The notes beneath the pieces were generated by a model. That model did not search any database and was not told where the DNA came from. It was given only the letters and a program-made list of their open reading frames with translations. A program made the translations under genes and the position numbers. DNA of 64,000 bases from Enterococcus phage CUB-FS. Below are positions 10,183 to 28,882 of the stretch, piece by piece. The stretch lies in sequence record PV646497.1. One strand, written 5' to 3'. Every line of letters begins with the position of its first letter. Within the stretch, counting starts at the first letter, position 1.

Positions 10183-10211
10183 TTGACAAATAACAAAAAA
10201 TGATGTAAACT
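10183..10211 (+). promoter_or_regulatory. early promoter cassette, copy 1
   Basis: TTGACAAATAACAAAAAATGATGTAAACT followed by TTTATAAGATAAAGAAGAGGAGAG leader. Confidence 0.6.
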
Positions 10212-10244
10212 AAGTTTATAAGATAAAGAAGAGGAGAGATACAC

Positions 10245-10496
10245 ATGAATGAACAAAAGAAAGTATATGCAAAATTAACAGAGGACGAGGCAGTATTTGC
10301 TTGTGAACTAGGAGATAAAATTAAACAAATTAGAGAGAGTCAAGAGCTATCTCGATTAGAACTTGCAAAACGAGCAAAAGTAGACCACTCAACATTAATC
10401 TTAATTGAACAAGGTAAACGACTACCAACATTACGTATTATGATGAAGTTGAGCAAAGCACTACACCGAGAATTAGCTGTTAGCTTTACAGATTAA
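10245..10496 (+). CDS. XRE-family HTH transcriptional regulator
   Basis: 83 aa; LSRLELAKRAKVDHSTLILIEQGKRLPTLRIMMKLSKAL matches a Cro/C1-type HTH. Confidence 0.65.
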   Translation: MNEQKKVYAKLTEDEAVFACELGDKIKQIRESQELSRLELAKRAKVDHSTLILIEQGKRLPTLRIMMKLSKALHRELAVSFTD

Positions 10497-10507
10497 GGAG
10501 GGGCATC

Positions 10508-10795
10508 ATGAGAGGGAGCCTAGATTATTACAACTATTTGTACCAAACAATCGAAAATCGACCTACGGAGGAGCTAGATGTCCTTTATGATGGTCTTTAT
10601 AAAAAAGCCGGTGACCTGTTTGCAATAGATAACTTCCAAGGAGTTAAAGAAGGCAGACTAATTTTAAAAATATTAAAGGCTATTAGAGAAGAAATTAATA
10701 GTAGAATTGATGAAGAAATTGACCTTTACTTGTATAATATCTATGACAGTATATCAGATGAAGACAAACGAGTAAATTGGCTATATGAGGTGTAG
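10508..10795 (+). CDS. hypothetical protein
   Basis: ORF track 95 aa; AGGAGGGG RBS. Confidence 0.5.
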   Translation: MRGSLDYYNYLYQTIENRPTEELDVLYDGLYKKAGDLFAIDNFQGVKEGRLILKILKAIREEINSRIDEEIDLYLYNIYDSISDEDKRVNWLYEV

Positions 10796-10797
10796 GT

Positions 10798-11586
10798 ATG
10801 TTTAGTGTTGTTAAGGCTGACAGCTATGTTAAATCAGACATAGAAATGTATGAATTTAAGAATGTAAAAAGTTTGGCATTGACTAAGAAAGAGAAAGAAC
10901 TATGGACAGGCAAAATTGCTAAATATGTTAATGAGTTTATTGTAAATGCTTATGGAGACTACCATGGGAATAAAATACCTGAAATAAATGTTGTAATCAA
11001 TGGTAAGCTAAGAAGAACCCTAGGTTCTTTTGTCCAATTCACTAACACAAACAAACACTGTATAGAGATAAATGGTAGGTTTGTTAAAGAAGTTATTCTA
11101 TTACAAGAAACACCCTTAGCTCAAAGAGCGCTTGATATTTTAATGGATGTAGCCAGACATGAAGCTATCCACTATACACTTTGTTATTTAAATAGTTTAA
11201 GTGGGGGAGACCTACCAACGTTCAACTACCATGACGGTGGGGAAGACTTTGAAAAAGATTTATGTTTGACAGGAACTTCACCTAGTGGCGCTACGAAAGA
11301 AGAGTATATTTATAGTTCTTTTACACTAGGAGCCATCAGATGCCGACACCATAGTACTTGTCCTGAATGTGGGTTGGAAACATACATGTATACACGAGGA
11401 CGGTACTACTGCCATAATGGGTGTGTAGGGGATAACGGTAGAAAAATTATATTTAGACCACAAGGTGATATTGCAATTTATATTGATGAATCAAAATCTA
11501 AAGCTAAACCAAAAGTAGAAGAAGCTCTGAAAGACTATAAGGGAGCGTTAAAGCTACCTTATACAGGTACGGAAGAAATAAAATAA
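10798..11586 (+). CDS. SprT-like zinc metalloprotease-like protein
   Basis: 262 aa; HEAIH (HExxH) plus C-terminal CPECG...CHNGC zinc ribbon. Confidence 0.4.
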   Translation: MFSVVKADSYVKSDIEMYEFKNVKSLALTKKEKELWTGKIAKYVNEFIVNAYGDYHGNKIPEINVVINGKLRRTLGSFVQFTNTNKHCIEINGRFVKEVILLQETPLAQRALDILMDVARHEAIHYTLCYLNSLSGGDLPTFNYHDGGEDFEKDLCLTGTSPSGATKEEYIYSSFTLGAIRCRHHSTCPECGLETYMYTRGRYYCHNGCVGDNGRKIIFRPQGDIAIYIDESKSKAKPKVEEALKDYKGALKLPYTGTEEIK

Positions 11587-11604
11587 AAAAAATAGTTAAA
11601 TGTA

Positions 11605-11633
11605 TTGACAAATAACAAAACATGATGTAAACT
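11605..11633 (+). promoter_or_regulatory. early promoter cassette, copy 2
   Basis: near-identical to copy 1 (TTGACAAATAACAAAACATGATGTAAACT). Confidence 0.6.
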
Positions 11634-11667
11634 AAGTTTATAAGATAAAGAAGAGGAGAGATTTATT

Positions 11668-12741
11668 ATGGCATACGTAACAAATATTGATGTAGTAGCA
11701 GATGGGTTAGATTTATATAATGGGAACTATGTGGTGGAACGAGGTCAAGTAGTTACTTTTAAACTACATGTAGCGACATGGAACAATGAGCCTACACCCG
11801 AAAATGCTTATGCGATTATTCGTAATAATGGGGTAGACTATAAGAGTAAAGTTGATGAATTTGGTAATGCAGAGGTTACCTTCCCAGTCAATGGTCGTCC
11901 TGACCAAGTGACAACTAGCATCTTTGCATTAACTTCTGGATATGAGGGGGATATGCCTCGTGTAATGTCAGCTATCTTTAGTGACGAAACAGAAATTAAA
12001 CAAACTGTAATGAACGTTACAGCATCTATTAATGGGGAGCCAGTTAGTCGTGAAGGTGTATTTTTAGAACGAGACCAAGTAGTCACTGTAGATGTTAAAG
12101 CAACATTATCTACAGGTAAGTTCTGGGAAGGTGCACAGGTAGGTGTGTACAATAACAACACGGAATACTTAGGTGACCTAGACGCAGATGGTTATGGTTC
12201 AGTAACTTTCCAAGTAAAAGGAAAACAAGGGATGGACACATCAGCTATCTACGTATTCGTTAAAGACCATGAACGAGAAGCTACACTAACAGTTCCTGTG
12301 AAGTTTACTAATACTACTGTTACTACAGAAACTTCTACAGAAGAATCGTCTACTGTTGATATGACTACAGGAACAGAGGAGTCTTCTACTACGGATACAA
12401 CAACTGTAGAAAGCTCTACAACGGATTCTACGTCTTCTACAGTAAATTCTACAGAAAGTACAGTAGAAAGCTCTACAGAGCAAACAGTGACCAATGAAGA
12501 CACTTCTACTGATTCAGGAGTAGTTGAAACTACAGAAACTTCCCAAGTAGCAGGCTACACAGAGTCTACTTCTAGTTCTACAGAGTCTAAAGAAGTTAAG
12601 GAAACTCATACTAGCACTACAGAACCTGCTAAAGAGTTGCCATCTACAGGCACAGAGGTAGACTATGGACTTGTTGGGTTCGGTGGTGTGGCATTAACAG
12701 TTGTAGTGGCACTAGTAGTTAAAAAATTGTTGAATAAGTAA
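11668..12741 (+). CDS. Ser/Thr-rich protein with C-terminal LPSTG sortase-like motif and TM anchor
   Basis: 357 aa; ...KELPSTGTEVDYGLVGFGGVALTVVVALVVKKLLNK; repetitive TTESSTE low-complexity stalk; no obvious N-terminal signal peptide. Confidence 0.5.
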   Translation: MAYVTNIDVVADGLDLYNGNYVVERGQVVTFKLHVATWNNEPTPENAYAIIRNNGVDYKSKVDEFGNAEVTFPVNGRPDQVTTSIFALTSGYEGDMPRVMSAIFSDETEIKQTVMNVTASINGEPVSREGVFLERDQVVTVDVKATLSTGKFWEGAQVGVYNNNTEYLGDLDADGYGSVTFQVKGKQGMDTSAIYVFVKDHEREATLTVPVKFTNTTVTTETSTEESSTVDMTTGTEESSTTDTTTVESSTTDSTSSTVNSTESTVESSTEQTVTNEDTSTDSGVVETTETSQVAGYTESTSSSTESKEVKETHTSTTEPAKELPSTGTEVDYGLVGFGGVALTVVVALVVKKLLNK

Positions 12742-12756
12742 GAAACACAATATTGC

Positions 12757-12800
12757 GACCCTCATTAATTGGGGGTTGCAAATTATATTATTTTTTTTAA
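12757..12800 (+). terminator. putative terminator
   Basis: GCGACCC...GGGTTGC hairpin followed by a T-rich run. Confidence 0.4.
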
Positions 12801-27843: not shown

Positions 27844-27949
27844 CCATATAAGGCACTAGGGAGCTTATACAATAGAACTACAAGCCTCCTAGTGTAATTA
27901 TAAGGTAAATAGCTAGAAACGCTTATACGAAAGAATAGGGGGCTTTAAA

Positions 27950-28093
27950 ATGACAACGGATGAATTAAAAGAGTTTTACTATGAAAACGGGATTGACTTG
28001 TGGAATGATAACCTATATTTTGAGCAAGTTGTTTCTAGTGGTGGATGGTACTACGACAATGGACGCGGTTTATGGTTTAATTATGAGGATTAA
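27950..28093 (+). CDS. small hypothetical protein (47 aa)
   Basis: not in ORF track; ATG after ATAGGGGGCTTTAAA leader. Confidence 0.35.
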   Translation: MTTDELKEFYYENGIDLWNDNLYFEQVVSSGGWYYDNGRGLWFNYED

Positions 28094-28110
28094 AAATTTA
28101 AACTTTTCTA

Positions 28111-28139
28111 TTGACAAAAAACAAAAACTTTGGTATTCT
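28111..28139 (+). promoter_or_regulatory. early promoter cassette, copy 18
   Basis: TTGACAAAAAACAAAAACTTTGGTATTCT. Confidence 0.5.
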
Positions 28140-28176
28140 ATACTTGTAAGATAAATAGAGAGGGGAACTAATAAAA

Positions 28177-28443
28177 ATGAAATTAAAAGAATTTATCAAA
28201 CTAGCAGAATCAAAAGGCGCTACATTAGAAGCATACAACGAGCTAGGAGGTTATGAACTAACTAGAGGGGACATAGTAGACCAGAATCCCGTTTTGATTG
28301 CTTACATGCAAGGGGCTTACAGCGTAGAAATACCAAACAAGGAACTAGAAAACAAGGAGTTAACAGAACTAGCGTTTGTCTATAAAAATGTAAGTCTTAT
28401 TTATCCAAATGAAAAAGAACTATTGTCAGGACTAGGACTATAG
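28177..28443 (+). CDS. hypothetical protein
   Basis: ORF track 88 aa. Confidence 0.5.
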   Translation: MKLKEFIKLAESKGATLEAYNELGGYELTRGDIVDQNPVLIAYMQGAYSVEIPNKELENKELTELAFVYKNVSLIYPNEKELLSGLGL

Positions 28444-28515
28444 CACAACGGCATATAAAGCCCGTAGCGAGGTTTTAGCGGGCTTTATATATAAATACCT
28501 TAAGGAGGAAACAAG

Positions 28516-28656
28516 GTGCTTACAGTGGAAAACAAGGGCGTTAGGTGGCTAGTGAGTAAAGAAGCATGGAAAGCGGGCTTTGCTATGGAGGTGCTAGGCT
28601 TGCCAGATTGTAAGGTTAGTACAGTATTAAAATCGGTCTATAAAATTATTATTTAA
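28516..28656 (+). CDS. small hypothetical protein (~46 aa)
   Basis: not in ORF track; GTG start after AAGGAGG; coordinates approximate. Confidence 0.3.
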   Translation: MLTVENKGVRWLVSKEAWKAGFAMEVLGLPDCKVSTVLKSVYKIII

Positions 28657-28673
28657 GTATTTAAACTTTTCTA

Positions 28674-28702
28674 TTGACAAATAACAAAAACTTTGGTATT
28701 CT
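28674..28702 (+). promoter_or_regulatory. early promoter cassette, copy 19
   Basis: TTGACAAATAACAAAAACTTTGGTATTCT. Confidence 0.5.
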
Positions 28703-28738
28703 ATATTTGTAAGATAAATAAGAAAGAGAGTGATTGGA

Positions 28739-28882
28739 ATGGAAACTAACAAAGCATATGAAAGACTATTGAAAGAAGTAGAAAACTTACAGAATGATTT
28801 AATGGATATCGAGGACTATTCAGAAGAAGTATACCAAGCCTTTCAAAGATTAATCGAAGAACTCGAAGAGGTAACCGAATAG
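28739..28882 (+). CDS. small acidic coiled-coil protein (47 aa)
   Basis: not in ORF track; last rightward gene before the strand switch. Confidence 0.35.
   Translation: METNKAYERLLKEVENLQNDLMDIEDYSEEVYQAFQRLIEELEEVTE

What the first reader, a model, noticed from the sequence alone, without database searches (positions are those of the whole stretch)
10183..28745. Array of ~20 near-identical promoter plus leader cassettes driving single tiny ORFs (host-takeover-like early module)
The ~75-bp unit TTGACAAATAACAAAAGATAAACTATAAT-AGGTTTATAAGATAAAGAGAGGAAGTT-ATG recurs at 10183, 11605, 12810, 20346, 20746, 21171, 21366, 21675, 21963, 22282, 22586, 23496, 23860, 25735, 26061, 26760, 27059, 28111 and 28674. 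Most copies have near-consensus sigma-A -35 and -10 hexamers at 17-nt spacing plus a conserved purine-rich leader. Each precedes a 45-110 aa ORF of unknown function. Two sub-families are visible: ...GATAAACTATAAT and ...ACTTTGGTATTCT. This mirrors the SPO1 host-takeover module (many strong early promoters in front of small host-shutoff genes), but none of the encoded proteins is recognisable here. The region is a dense source of candidate host-inhibitory peptides and a strong candidate for the biologically new part of the window.
Basis: partly seen in the sequence, partly recalled or inferred. Interest (0 to 1): 0.7.

Follow-up and report, generated by a model that had tools for sequence, protein, structure and literature searches.

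The report
Repeated early-promoter cassettes in Enterococcus phage
The window comes from a large SPO1-family phage of Enterococcus, and the repeated unit is a strong host-type promoter fused to a short purine-rich leader that puts many unrelated small genes of unknown function at the genome end under probable early expression and marks where these genes are swapped between phages; the general arrangement is already known for this phage family.

Summary
Nineteen copies of a promoter-plus-leader unit lie on the + strand between 10183 and 28738. None occurs elsewhere in the 64 kb.

The window is an Enterococcus Kochikohdavirus (Herelleviridae, the SPO1 family). The main array sits at the right genome end and inside the direct terminal repeat, inferred at about 25211-28977.

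Each unit has an A-rich upstream tract, CTATTGACA, a 17-nt spacer, a variable -10 box and a purine at the predicted start. A C-poor, 84% purine leader (TAAGATAAAGARAGGAAG) follows and doubles as the ribosome-binding site. There is no stem-loop.

The 29 downstream ORFs examined are unrelated to each other. Two have recognisable domains: an XRE-type regulator and an LPXTG surface protein.

- The family is shared across Brockvirinae and, in part, with unrelated Enterococcus siphophages.
- Homology blocks between related phages begin and end in the cassettes (64 of 99 breakpoints in 18% of the sequence).
- The leader closely resembles that of the coliphage T5 PN25 early promoter.

Early timing and host-inhibitory function were not tested; they rest on what is known for related phages. 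Verdict: a new member of a known kind, of moderate interest.

The parts
10183..10244 (+). Cassette 1: TTGACA, 17-nt spacer, TAAACT, leader ATAAGATAAAGAAGAGGAG. It drives the HTH_3/XRE regulator ORF 10245-10496 and two further ORFs up to 11586.
11605..11667 (+). Cassette 2, same subtype as cassette 1. It drives the 357-aa LPXTG-anchored protein ORF 11668-12741.
12753..12781 (+). Terminator-like hairpin (12 pairs) between the LPXTG gene and cassette 3.
12810..12866 (+). Cassette 3 (TAAACT subtype). It heads a long + strand operon from 12867 to about 20087.
20086..20107 (+). Terminator-like hairpin ending the long operon, upstream of the main array.
20346..20429 (+). Cassette 4 (CTAGTATAATAT subtype, 56-nt leader). 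It drives ORF 20430-20729.
20746..20807 (+). Cassette 5 (TACAAT). It drives ORF 20802/20808-21131.
21171..21228 (+). Cassette 6, an atypical member: 18-nt spacer, TG-extended -10 and a different leader. It drives ORF 21229-21369.
21366..21427 (+). Cassette 7, perfect TTGACA-17-TATAAT. It drives ORF 21428-21655. From the -10 box to the ATG it matches T5 PN25 at 34 of 40 positions.
21675..21736 (+). Cassette 8 (TATTAT). It drives the predicted membrane ORF 21737-21943.
21963..22024 (+). Cassette 9. It drives ORF 22019/22025-22267. The unit 21986-22340 is 93% identical to the Saphexavirus phage Toszka.
22282..22336 (+). Cassette 10, with a 7-nt spacer deletion (10-nt spacer), so the promoter is probably dead. 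The copy is intact in relatives. It precedes ORF 22331/22337-22582.
22586..22647 (+). Cassette 11. It drives ORFs 22648-22878, 22929-23135 and 23154-23486.
23496..23556 (+). Cassette 12, perfect consensus and identical to cassette 7 over 72 nt. It drives ORF 23548/23557-23850.
23860..23931 (+). Cassette 13, with 3 extra A in the spacer. It drives four ORFs from 23932 to 24994.
25211..28977 (.). Inferred direct terminal repeat. Three related records start within 20 nt of 25211, and the annotated 1911-bp repeat of EF1TV maps to 25211...28977.
25755..25816 (+). Cassette 14 (TGGTATTCT subtype). It drives ORF 25817-26044.
26061..26127 (+). Cassette 15 (TGGTATTCT subtype, leader TGTAAGATAAATAAGAGAAAGAGAGTGAT). 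It drives ORF 26128-26400.
26372..26439 (+). Decayed cassette. The leader TGTAAGATAAAG and the ribosome-binding site are kept, but the -35 and -10 boxes are lost. It precedes ORF 26440-26751; the ortholog in EF24C and MDA2 has a promoter.
26760..26824 (+). Cassette 16 (CTAGTGTAATAT subtype). It drives ORF 26825-27049.
27059..27147 (+). Cassette 17, with a 61-nt leader containing a G+C-rich hairpin. It drives the conserved acidic 231-aa ORF 27148-27843 and ORF 27950-28093.
28111..28176 (+). Cassette 18 (TGGTATTCT subtype). It drives ORFs 28177-28443 and 28516-28656.
28674..28738 (+). Cassette 19 (TGGTATTCT subtype). It drives ORF 28739-28882.
28966..28983 (+). Terminator-like hairpin at the inner edge of the terminal repeat. 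+ strand transcription ends here and faces the - strand genes.

Best explanation
The window is part of an Enterococcus phage of the genus Kochikohdavirus (Herelleviridae, Brockvirinae). The repeated unit is a self-contained expression cassette for host RNA polymerase.

Anatomy of one unit, in order:
- an A+T-rich upstream tract;
- CTATTGACA (the -35 box);
- a 17-nt A-rich spacer;
- a -10 box;
- a purine 7 nt downstream, the inferred start site;
- a roughly 30-nt unstructured, C-poor, purine-rich leader, (A/G)TAAGATAAAGARAGGAAGTT, whose 3' half pairs with the 3' end of 16S rRNA.

Nineteen copies sit before unrelated small genes in the last ~19 kb of the genome and in the direct terminal repeat.

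Inferred mechanism: on DNA entry, host sigma-A polymerase fires from all copies. The purine-rich initial transcribed sequence favours promoter escape, and the ribosome-binding site close to the 5' end gives efficient translation and probably protects the 5' end. Almost no terminators lie inside the array, so each promoter adds to read-through transcripts. An individual promoter can therefore decay without silencing its gene.

Because the ~75-bp units are alike while the genes between them are not, the units also act as patches of homology. Through them, single-gene units are inserted, deleted, replaced and reordered, both between related phages and occasionally across phage families.

Shown here: the sequence anatomy, the genomic position, the lack of paralogy, the mosaic junctions and the cross-family sharing. 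Inferred only: early timing, promoter strength, and the roles of the leader in escape and RNA stability. Not addressed by any evidence here: the host-takeover function of the proteins.
For: Identity and position
- The window is 92-98% identical to EF24C, ECP3, EFLK1 and other Kochikohdavirus phages.
- EF1TV, A155 and Ef2.1 records begin within 20 nt of window position 25211. The annotated left and right direct repeats of EF1TV map to 25211-28977.
- The strand switch lies at about 29 kb.

Promoter anatomy
- There are 13 exact 16-mer cores, and 16 copies have TTGACA with a 17-nt spacer and a TAnnnT box.
- The family is confined to the + strand between 10183 and 28738.

Leader
- The predicted +1 to +20 is 84% purine and 2.2% C, against 60% and 13% background. 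No one of 10,000 random samples reached these values.
- The leaders have a predicted folding energy of about 0.
- The predicted duplex of the ribosome-binding site with 16S rRNA averages -11.9 kcal/mol, against -9.6 for other ORFs (p = 0.009).
- From the -10 box to the ATG, T5 PN25 aligns with cassettes 21366 and 21675 at 34 of 40 positions, z = 5.0 and 5.8. The native initial transcribed sequence of PN25 is purine-rich, lacks C up to +30, and raises productive transcription about 10-fold (PMC12464699).

Genes
- The 29 ORFs share no similarity with each other.
- Nearly all fall in conserved PHROGs of unknown function.

Mosaicism
- 64 of 99 homology-block ends (25 of 36 after merging) lie in cassettes, which make up 18% of the region (p = 7e-24 and 3e-11). 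Against sequence outside ORF interiors only, the count is 25 of 32 versus 52% expected (p = 0.002).
- About 56 ORF families occur across 8 phages, with whole-unit insertions, deletions, replacements and order changes.
- The unit 21986-22340 is 93% identical to Saphexavirus Toszka, and its ORF is 94-95% identical in 5 siphophage records of 47-59 kb (four of Saphexavirus size, 58-59 kb).
- Two unrelated ORFs share only the cassette-encoded start MNMNELE.
- Promoters lost in the window, at 22282 and 26396, are intact in relatives.

Family spread
- There are 9-18 copies per Kochikohdavirus genome.
- At least 12 copies (CTATTGACA plus a -10 box and a TAAGATAAA-type leader) occur in the first 7.3 kb of Schiekvirus EfV12-phi1.
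- The same leader follows a different promoter in Efquatrovirus phiSHEF2, and a close variant occurs in Lactobacillus brevis phage SAC12B.

Timing by analogy
- Terminal-repeat genes of phage K are transcribed at 2 min from sigma-70-like promoters (PMC9241854).
- Terminal-repeat and genome-end genes of Listeria phage CKA15 peak at 5 min, and most gene gain and loss lies within 20 kb of the genome ends (PMC12282133).
Against: - There are no expression data for this phage or its genus; literature searches found none. Start sites, promoter strength and timing are therefore all predicted.
- Three of the 19 copies have non-functional-looking spacers.
- The TGGTATTCT subtype has a weak -10 box (4 of 6 matches), partly offset by an extended TG.
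- Breakpoint enrichment partly follows from genes being the units of exchange and from cassettes filling half of the non-coding sequence. Several junctions (22855, 23314, 24131, 24409, 25013) are not at cassettes.
- The match to T5 PN25 was a single comparison recalled because it looked similar. BLAST does not connect the two at E <= 1.
- The comparison of ribosome-binding-site energies is biased by uncertain start codons in the control set.
- The terminal-repeat limits are transferred from another phage whose repeat is half as long.
Confidence: 0.7

Rival explanations
1. The repeats are only a by-product of recent duplication or gene conversion of one promoter. The conserved spacer and leader carry no function beyond the -35 box, the -10 box and the ribosome-binding site, and the cassettes play no special part in gene exchange.
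For: - The conserved spacer AAWAACAAAA is lineage-specific. Saphexavirus and Efquatrovirus copies keep the leader but have other spacers.
- Cassettes 21366 and 23496 are identical over 72 nt, which points to recent conversion.
- Some copies have decayed.
Against: - The genes behind the copies are unrelated, so whole units were not duplicated.
- The leader is kept behind different promoters, in three phage families and in a Lactobacillus phage.
- The strong purine and C bias of the transcribed start is not expected from drift.
- Breakpoints concentrate in cassettes.
Confidence: 0.12
2. The conserved non-hexamer parts (the spacer, or TAAGATAAAG at the start site) are an operator for a phage regulator. 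The XRE-type protein made from the first cassette (10245-10496) would be a candidate, and it would switch the whole early set off together.
For: - An HTH_3 protein (E = 3e-11) is encoded directly behind cassette 1 and is annotated as a repressor or regulator in relatives.
- Promoter spacers are normally not conserved, but here they are.
- A 10-bp-arm palindrome lies just upstream of cassette 1, at 10138-10165.
Against: - No inverted repeat is conserved inside the cassettes.
- Spacer conservation is absent in the siphophage copies.
- XRE dimers usually need dyad sites.
- Nothing links this protein to these sites.
Confidence: 0.12
3. The main role of the leader is post-transcriptional. It would be a polypurine 5' stabiliser or a processing site, giving every gene of the read-through transcripts the same protected 5' end, as described for SP82 early RNA in Bacillus subtilis.
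For: - The leader is polypurine, unstructured and resembles a ribosome-binding site within about 10 nt of the predicted 5' end.
- The decayed copy at 26396 keeps the leader without a promoter.
- There are no terminators inside the array, so polycistronic RNAs are expected.
- Precedent: Hue, Cohen and Bechhofer 1995, as cited in PMC7509114.
Against: - Promoter-less leaders are rare: one clean case.
- The TAAG motif keeps a fixed distance to the -10 box, not to the start codon. This fits a start-site role better than a processing role.
- This rival does not exclude the main explanation.
Confidence: 0.2
4. The cassettes are middle or late promoters read by phage-modified polymerase, not early ones.
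For: In phage K, early and middle promoters look alike (PMC10383478; PMC9241854). Sequence alone therefore cannot separate early from middle.
Against: - A perfect TTGACA -35 box is the mark of unmodified host holoenzyme; phage K late promoters lack a -35 box.
- The position at the genome end and in the terminal repeat matches the earliest genes of relatives.
Confidence: 0.06

Closest known systems
SPO1 'host-takeover module' and the terminal-repeat early genes of other Herelleviridae (phage K tre genes, Listeria A511/CKA15)
   Same: - Same virus family.
- Same place, in and next to the direct terminal repeat.
- Many short operons behind host sigma-A consensus promoters.
- Mostly genes of fewer than 110 codons without known homologs.
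- High gene turnover near the genome ends (PMC7414437; PMC12282133; PMC9241854).
   Different: - No sequence similarity of the products to characterised SPO1 takeover proteins was found (Pfam and PHROGs only).
- Only 6 of the 19 cassettes lie inside the inferred repeat.
- The whole ~75-bp unit, not just the hexamers, is repeated.
- Timing and host shut-off are untested here.
PeSL cassettes (promoter-early stem-loops) of T4-type phages (Arbiol et al. 2010, PMC2839356; Comeau et al. 2014, PMC4122927)
   Same: - Repeated small regulatory cassettes with a sigma-70-type promoter, an A+T-rich upstream tract, and a ribosome-binding site plus start codon at the 3' end.
- Placed before ORFan genes in the most plastic genome regions.
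- Sit at the junctions of insertions, deletions and replacements between close relatives.
   Different: - There is no stem-loop or terminator in 16 of 19 copies, so the units are not insulated from each other.
- Different phage family and host phylum.
- No evidence for mini-circles.
- Here the conserved part extends into the transcribed leader.
Coliphage T5 early promoters (PN25 class; 'repeat c' in GenBank AY587007)
   Same: - A strong host-type promoter whose conserved block runs from the -10 box into a purine-rich, C-free initial transcribed sequence containing the ribosome-binding site.
- T5 is also a phage with long terminal repeats.
- Identity from the -10 box to the ATG is 34 of 40 positions with cassettes 21366 and 21675.
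   Different: - Unrelated phage and a Gram-negative host.
- The -35 box and spacer differ.
- No 11-nt word is shared, so BLAST does not link them.
- The resemblance may be convergence. The effect on promoter escape is known only for T5 with E. coli polymerase.
Polypurine 5' stabiliser of SP82 early RNA / STAB-SD elements of Bacillus
   Same: A polypurine sequence resembling a ribosome-binding site lies close to the 5' end of an early mRNA of an SPO1-like phage.
   Different: The 5' end is only predicted here, and stability was not measured. The SP82 element was defined on a processed RNA.

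Membership tests
Herelleviridae terminal-repeat early ('host-takeover') module | The genome belongs to Herelleviridae. | tested here: met
   The window is 92-98% identical at the nucleotide level to Kochikohdavirus records, and the taxonomy lines of those records place them in Herelleviridae.
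Herelleviridae terminal-repeat early ('host-takeover') module | The module is located in or next to the direct terminal repeat. | tested here: met
   The repeat is inferred at 25211-28977 from the EF1TV annotation and from record starts. Six cassettes plus one remnant lie inside it, ten lie in the 5 kb just upstream, and three lie 12-15 kb upstream.
Herelleviridae terminal-repeat early ('host-takeover') module | Many short operons lie behind host sigma-A consensus promoters. | tested here: met
   Sixteen copies have TTGACA, a 17-nt spacer and TAnnnT. Twelve of 19 drive one ORF.
Herelleviridae terminal-repeat early ('host-takeover') module | Transcription begins in the first minutes of infection by unmodified host polymerase. 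| not testable with these tools
   No transcriptome of this genus was found. The timing is inferred from phage K and CKA15.
Herelleviridae terminal-repeat early ('host-takeover') module | The products shut off or redirect host functions. | not testable with these tools
   No domain hits were found for 24 ORFs in 20430-28882. The 231-aa protein gives a confident model with no structural analog.
Herelleviridae terminal-repeat early ('host-takeover') module | The products are homologous to SPO1 gp37-gp60. | tested here: inconclusive
   There was no direct comparison with SPO1 proteins. The PHROG hits are all small families of unknown function.
PeSL cassettes of T4-type phages | A sigma-70-like early promoter with an A+T-rich upstream tract, followed by a ribosome-binding site and a start codon. 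| tested here: met
PeSL cassettes of T4-type phages | A stable stem-loop (terminator or attenuator) lies within the cassette. | tested here: not met
   Sixteen of 19 cassette regions fold no better than shuffles (z between -1.0 and +2.2). Hairpins occur only near 10183, 21171 and 27059.
PeSL cassettes of T4-type phages | The cassettes lie at insertion, deletion and replacement junctions between close relatives, in plastic ORFan regions. | tested here: met
   64 of 99 breakpoints fall in 18% of the sequence, and whole-unit changes in gene order are seen.
PeSL cassettes of T4-type phages | Recombination between cassettes forms mini-circles. | not testable with these tools
   This needs PCR or long reads on infected cells.
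T5 PN25-type early promoter | The initial transcribed sequence is purine-rich and C-free and contains the ribosome-binding site. | tested here: met
   84% purine and 2.2% C over the predicted +1 to +20. PN25 properties are taken from PMC12464699.
T5 PN25-type early promoter | Sequence relatedness to T5 'repeat c' (the -10 box to +17). | tested here: inconclusive
   34 of 40 identities with two copies, z = 5.0 and 5.8. Other copies give z between 0.8 and 3.9, and there is no BLAST link. Common descent is not shown.
T5 PN25-type early promoter | The initial transcribed sequence raises promoter escape. | not testable with these tools
   This needs in vitro transcription with E. faecalis holoenzyme.
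C3-like ADP-ribosyltransferase (considered for the 231-aa ORF 27148-27843) | ART fold with R / S-T-S / Q-x-E catalytic residues. | tested here: not met
   [not shown]

The most novel reading that the evidence does not exclude
The cassettes may be a portable early-expression adaptor shared by unrelated phages of Enterococcus: Herelleviridae myophages, and Saphexavirus and Efquatrovirus siphophages. Any small gene flanked by two such units could then move between phage families by homologous recombination and arrive already fitted with an escape-optimised promoter and leader. That would be a stem-loop-free counterpart, in Gram-positive hosts, of the T4 PeSL system. Its leader design would be the one that coliphage T5 reached independently.
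Probability: 0.4. Interest if true: 0.6.

Novelty: new member of a known kind. Interest (0 to 1): 0.4.

Why it matters
Kochikohdavirus phages such as EF24C, EFLK1 and ECP3 are leading candidates for therapy of Enterococcus infections, yet their early genes are all annotated as hypothetical.

- The cassette gives a simple sequence mark for the probable early gene set. That set is about 56 ORF families across eight phages, and these are the first candidates for host-inhibitory or anti-defence proteins.
- The cassette is also a compact, probably very strong expression signal for engineering E. faecalis or its phages.
- If the cassettes really mediate exchange of single genes, including across phage families, that would explain why therapeutic phages that are 95% identical elsewhere differ mainly at this genome end. 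Cocktails of such phages could then reshuffle these genes.

Tried and rejected
- **Host mimicry by the leader.** An exact scan for ATAAGATAAAGARAGGAAG in one genome per species (185,579 species) gave 38 hits. This is about the number expected by chance (my own estimate of about 35), with one hit in an Enterococcus sp. and none in E. faecalis or E. faecium. The idea was rejected for the exact motif. A few hits in Bacilli do sit directly after a -10 box.
- **ADP-ribosyltransferase for the conserved 231-aa protein.** Rejected. A weak NusA N-terminal similarity (E = 0.02) is not significant. BFVD gave only uncharacterised phage proteins.
- **First structure model.** The model built from a shallow alignment was useless (pLDDT 47).
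- **IMG/VR scan for the promoter core.** It found multiple copies only in the EFLK1 contig; the rest were single chance hits.
- **PeSL membership.** It fails on the stem-loop criterion.
- **Paralogous gene family.** Rejected.
- **PDB sequence searches** of three other ORFs found nothing below E = 0.1.
- **Listeria hits to the T5 PN25 query.** These are short 3.6-5 kb records, not Herelleviridae genomes, and were not used.
- **Papers.** The EF24C genome paper could not be read. No paper in the library mentions promoters of this genus.
- **Tools.** The afdb50 fold library was unavailable.

Full report

Yes. The core 16-mer TATTGACAAAWAACAA occurs 13 times exactly, always on the + strand, between 10181 and 28687. 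With up to three mismatches there are 25 matches, against 4.7 +/- 2.3 (maximum 10) in dinucleotide-preserving shuffles. The repeat finder reports a 78-nt family of 14 copies at 62-100% identity to its reference, plus overlapping shorter families.

Reading every listed position confirms 19 units. One coordinate needs correcting: the -35 box listed at 25735 is at 25755. A scan of the whole window for TTGACA-N16-18-TAnnnT shows that units with the family's spacer and leader occur only on the + strand between 10183 and 28738. Other sigma-A-like promoters on the - strand have other sequences.

'Near-identical' is too strong. Two copies (21346-21417 and 23476-23547) are identical over 72 nt.

**2. 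Anatomy**

An ungapped alignment of the 16 copies with a 17-nt spacer gives this consensus:
- an A/T-rich tract;
- CTA-TTGACA-AAWAACAAAA, then a variable 7 nt;
- a -10 box;
- 6 nt and then a purine;
- TAAGATAAAG-ARAGGAAG-TTWTRAAY-ATG.

The -10 region comes in at least four forms:
- TAAACT (10183, 11605, 12810);
- GATAAAC-TATAAT or GATAGTG-TATTAT (most of 20746-23860);
- CTTTGG-TATTCT with an extended TG (25755, 26061, 28111, 28674);
- CTAGTR-TAATAT (20346, 26760, 27059).

Three copies are damaged or atypical. Copy 22282 has lost 7 nt of spacer, 23860 has three extra A, and 21171 has an 18-nt spacer and another leader. At 26372-26439 a copy retains the leader and ribosome-binding site but has lost both hexamers.

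The motif (Y)RTAAG keeps a fixed distance from the -10 box, while its distance to the start codon varies from about 20 to 60 nt. This ties it to the transcription start. With +1 placed at the purine 7 nt after the -10 box, the first 20 transcribed bases are 84% purine and 2.2% C. The background for this strand is 60% and 13%. In 10,000 random samples the maximum purine content was 72.5% and the minimum C content 5.9%.

The leaders are predicted to be unstructured, with folding energy of 0 to -3 kcal/mol. The exception is 27059, which carries a G+C-rich hairpin. Sixteen of 19 cassette regions fold no better than shuffles.

AGAAAGGA or AGAGAGGA in the leader pairs with the extreme 3' end of 16S rRNA (the sequence is taken from general knowledge of Firmicutes). 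Predicted duplex energies are somewhat stronger than for other ORFs of the window: -11.9 against -9.6 kcal/mol, p = 0.009. The caveat is that start codons in the control set are uncertain.

Terminator-like hairpins on the + strand lie at 12753-12781, 20086-20107 and 28966-28983. None of comparable quality lies inside the array from 20346 to 28900.

**3. What the window is and where the array lies**

Megablast places the window in Enterococcus phages of the genus Kochikohdavirus (Herelleviridae, Brockvirinae; EF24C, ECP3, EFLK1, Sw5 and others) at 92-98% identity. Coverage in the array is patchy.

GC skew and ORF orientation show + strand genes up to about 29 kb and - strand genes beyond.

Three linear records (EF1TV, A155, Ef2.1) start within 20 nt of window position 25211. 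EF1TV annotates a 1911-bp direct repeat at both ends. Its inner edge maps to window position 28977, which coincides with the terminator at 28966-28983.

The resulting layout:
- Cassettes 20346-23860 occupy the last 5 kb before the right repeat.
- Cassettes 25755-28674 lie inside the repeat.
- Cassettes 10183-12810 open the roughly 15 kb of unknown genes upstream.

The repeat limits of this particular phage remain inferred.

**4. The genes**

Of 29 ORFs behind or between cassettes, none resembles another (BLASTP at E <= 0.1 gave only two 8-9-residue matches). What is repeated is therefore regulatory DNA, not genes.

Pfam finds an HTH_3/XRE domain in 10245-10496 (E = 3e-11) and an LPXTG anchor in the 357-aa product of 11668-12741. 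It finds nothing for the 24 ORFs of 20430-28882. Nearly all match small PHROG families of unknown function over their full length, so they are conserved genes. Many are strongly acidic or basic, and two have a predicted membrane helix.

The one gene present in every relative, inside the terminal repeat, encodes a 231-aa protein with net charge -36 (27148-27843). I followed it in detail:
- A marginal phmmer hit to a C3-type ADP-ribosyltransferase does not conserve the catalytic residues.
- The hit vanishes with a 50-sequence profile built from 64 distant relatives.
- Its only neighbours in BFVD are uncharacterised phage proteins.

Its function stays unknown.

**5. Distribution of the cassette**

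A single 85-nt cassette finds 9-18 places per Kochikohdavirus genome.

- The sister genus Schiekvirus carries at least 12 copies of the same design in the first 7.3 kb of EfV12-phi1.
- Unrelated siphophages of Enterococcus also carry it. In Saphexavirus Toszka, an array of eight TTGACA promoters before small ORFs includes three copies with the full spacer or leader.
- Efquatrovirus phiSHEF2 has the identical leader ATAAGATAAAGAGAGGAAGTTAT behind a different promoter.
- The Lactobacillus brevis myophage SAC12B has the variant cATAGATAAGGAAAGGAAGTTTT.

The promoter core is not multi-copy in any other IMG/VR contig. The exact leader occurs in bacterial genomes at about the number I estimate for chance, 38 hits in 185,579 species and none in E. 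faecalis or E. faecium. It is therefore a phage feature, not a copy of a host leader.

**6. Cassettes as junctions of mosaicism**

I ran local BLASTN of window 19000-30500 against eight related genome ends. It gives homology blocks whose ends fall again and again at the same cassette positions.

- Of 99 block ends, 64 lie in cassette intervals, which make up 18% of the region (binomial p = 7e-24).
- After merging ends within 20 nt, the count is 25 of 36 (p = 3e-11).
- Against sequence outside ORF interiors only, it is 25 of 32 versus 52% expected (p = 0.002).

Gene-order strings for the eight phages contain about 56 ORF families. They show whole-unit insertions, deletions and replacements, and changes of order. 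For example, families 18 and 19 occur in either order, and family 23 lies before or after the 231-aa gene.

Further observations point the same way:
- The promoters that are damaged in the window (22282, 26396) are intact in relatives. This fits redundancy among read-through promoters.
- Window 21986-22340, an 82-aa ORF with half a cassette on each side, is 93.4% identical over 362 nt to Toszka.
- The protein of that ORF is 94-95% identical in five siphophage records of 47-59 kb (four of Saphexavirus size, 58-59 kb) and present in 24 Kochikohdavirus records. A whole unit has therefore crossed between phage families.
- Two unrelated ORFs (20802 and 22331) share only the first seven codons, MNMNELE, which belong to the cassette.

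Caveat: part of the enrichment is expected whenever genes are the units of exchange. Several junctions also lie at cassette-free gene boundaries.

**7. Mechanism**

The best reading is an array of autonomous early expression units for host sigma-A polymerase. Early timing is inferred, on these grounds:
- The -35 box is perfect. Phage K late promoters lack a -35 box (PMC9241854).
- The position matches the earliest genes of relatives. Phage K terminal-repeat genes are transcribed at 2 min. In Listeria phage CKA15, terminal-repeat and genome-end genes peak at 5 min, and gene gain and loss concentrate within 20 kb of the ends (PMC12282133).
- The SPO1 terminal repeat carries the host-takeover module (PMC7414437).

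The conserved transcribed start is most simply an escape-optimised initial transcribed sequence fused to the ribosome-binding site. Its composition is that of the T5 PN25 promoter, whose native purine-rich, C-free sequence raises productive transcription about tenfold (PMC12464699).

I recalled the PN25 sequence from memory and checked it. It is exact in T5, where GenBank annotates a 'putative early promoter' and 'repeat c copy 6' over the -10 box to +17. From the -10 box to the ATG it matches cassettes 21366 and 21675 at 34 of 40 positions, z = 5.0 and 5.8 against composition-preserving shuffles. BLAST does not link the two. I therefore treat this as a shared design, probably by convergence, and not as homology.

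A second, compatible role is protection of the 5' end by a ribosome bound close to it. This was shown for a polypurine element of SP82 early RNA (Hue et al. 1995, cited in PMC7509114).

A regulatory role for the XRE protein made from the first cassette is possible, but nothing supports it beyond proximity.

**8. Comparison with known systems and novelty**

In kind, this is the early module at the terminal repeat and genome end that is typical of Herelleviridae. The membership features I could test are met: family, position, promoter type, and small ORFan genes. Timing and host shut-off cannot be tested here.

In genome dynamics it works like the PeSL cassettes of T4-type phages (PMC2839356). 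It is not a member, because the defining stem-loop is absent.

The same cassettes and most of the ORFs are already present, unannotated, in more than 100 deposited genomes. No paper in the searchable library describes them.

I rate it a new member of a known kind, with moderate interest (0.4). The general arrangement would not surprise a specialist. The cross-family portability of the cassette, its role as a recombination junction, and the T5-like leader are useful leads that can be tested.

Noticed in passing
window 61590-62166 (-), with a TTGACA promoter at 62224 (-): A full-length ROOL RNA (Rfam RF03087, 268 bits, model positions 1-574) lies next to the tRNA cluster. A sigma-A-like promoter sits about 60 nt upstream.
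   Followed up: no
window 59368-61478 (-): A cluster of seven tRNA genes. One ARAGORN call (59954-60050) is a 97-nt 'tRNA-???' with a four-base anticodon (ttcc) that Rfam did not confirm.
   Followed up: no
[not shown]
   Followed up: yes
window 10138-10165 and 10245-10496 (+): The first cassette drives an 83-aa XRE/HTH_3 regulator. A palindrome with 10-bp arms (TTTCTCACTA...TAGTGAGAAA) lies directly upstream of that cassette and could be its operator.
   Followed up: partly
window 11668-12741 (+): A phage-encoded 357-aa acidic protein with an LPXTG cell-wall anchor sits behind a cassette. A surface-anchored early protein could act in superinfection exclusion.
   Followed up: no
window 25000-25750: This is a 750-bp stretch without ORFs around the physical genome end (about 25211). 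A purine-only low-complexity run (25085-25200) precedes the end. Three copies of GGGGGCGC(A/T)TA (25248, 25335, 25424) and a GGGGGCTTTAAA (25492) follow it. A similar GGGGCGCTAT lies in the leader of cassette 20346. These may be packaging or replication signals.
   Followed up: no
window 19499-19641 and 20120-20212: TAGGATA-type tandem repeats (periods 11-21 and 66) lie between two ORFs. A 24-nt unit TAAGTAGCAGGTTGCAAAATTCCC occurs 3.8 times, just after the terminator at 20086-20107 and before the first cassette of the main array.
   Followed up: no
window 25444-25503 and 27890-27949: A 60-nt direct repeat (80% identity) lies inside the inferred terminal repeat, in non-coding DNA upstream of cassette 25755 and of ORF 27950-28093.
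   Followed up: no
window 27094-27147 (+): Alone among the cassettes, the leader of the 231-aa gene carries a strong hairpin, GGAGGGAGGG-AAA-CCTCCCT. The whole leader folds at -19 kcal/mol. It may act as a 5' stabiliser or sequester a ribosome-binding-like sequence.
   Followed up: partly
window 23154-23486 (+): This 110-aa ORF matches a 57-aa PHROG only in its N-terminal half. Homology to relatives stops at 23303-23314, so it looks like a fusion created by a mosaic junction inside a gene.
   Followed up: partly
L073 4560-4680 (Enterococcus sp. AZ126), L047, L048, L064: In a few Bacilli genomes the exact leader ATAAGATAAAGARAGGAAG sits directly after a TATAAT box and before an ATG, the same arrangement as in the phage cassettes. 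In L073 the promoter is flanked by an inverted repeat, ATATCAGGATATCC / GGATATCCTGATAT.
   Followed up: partly
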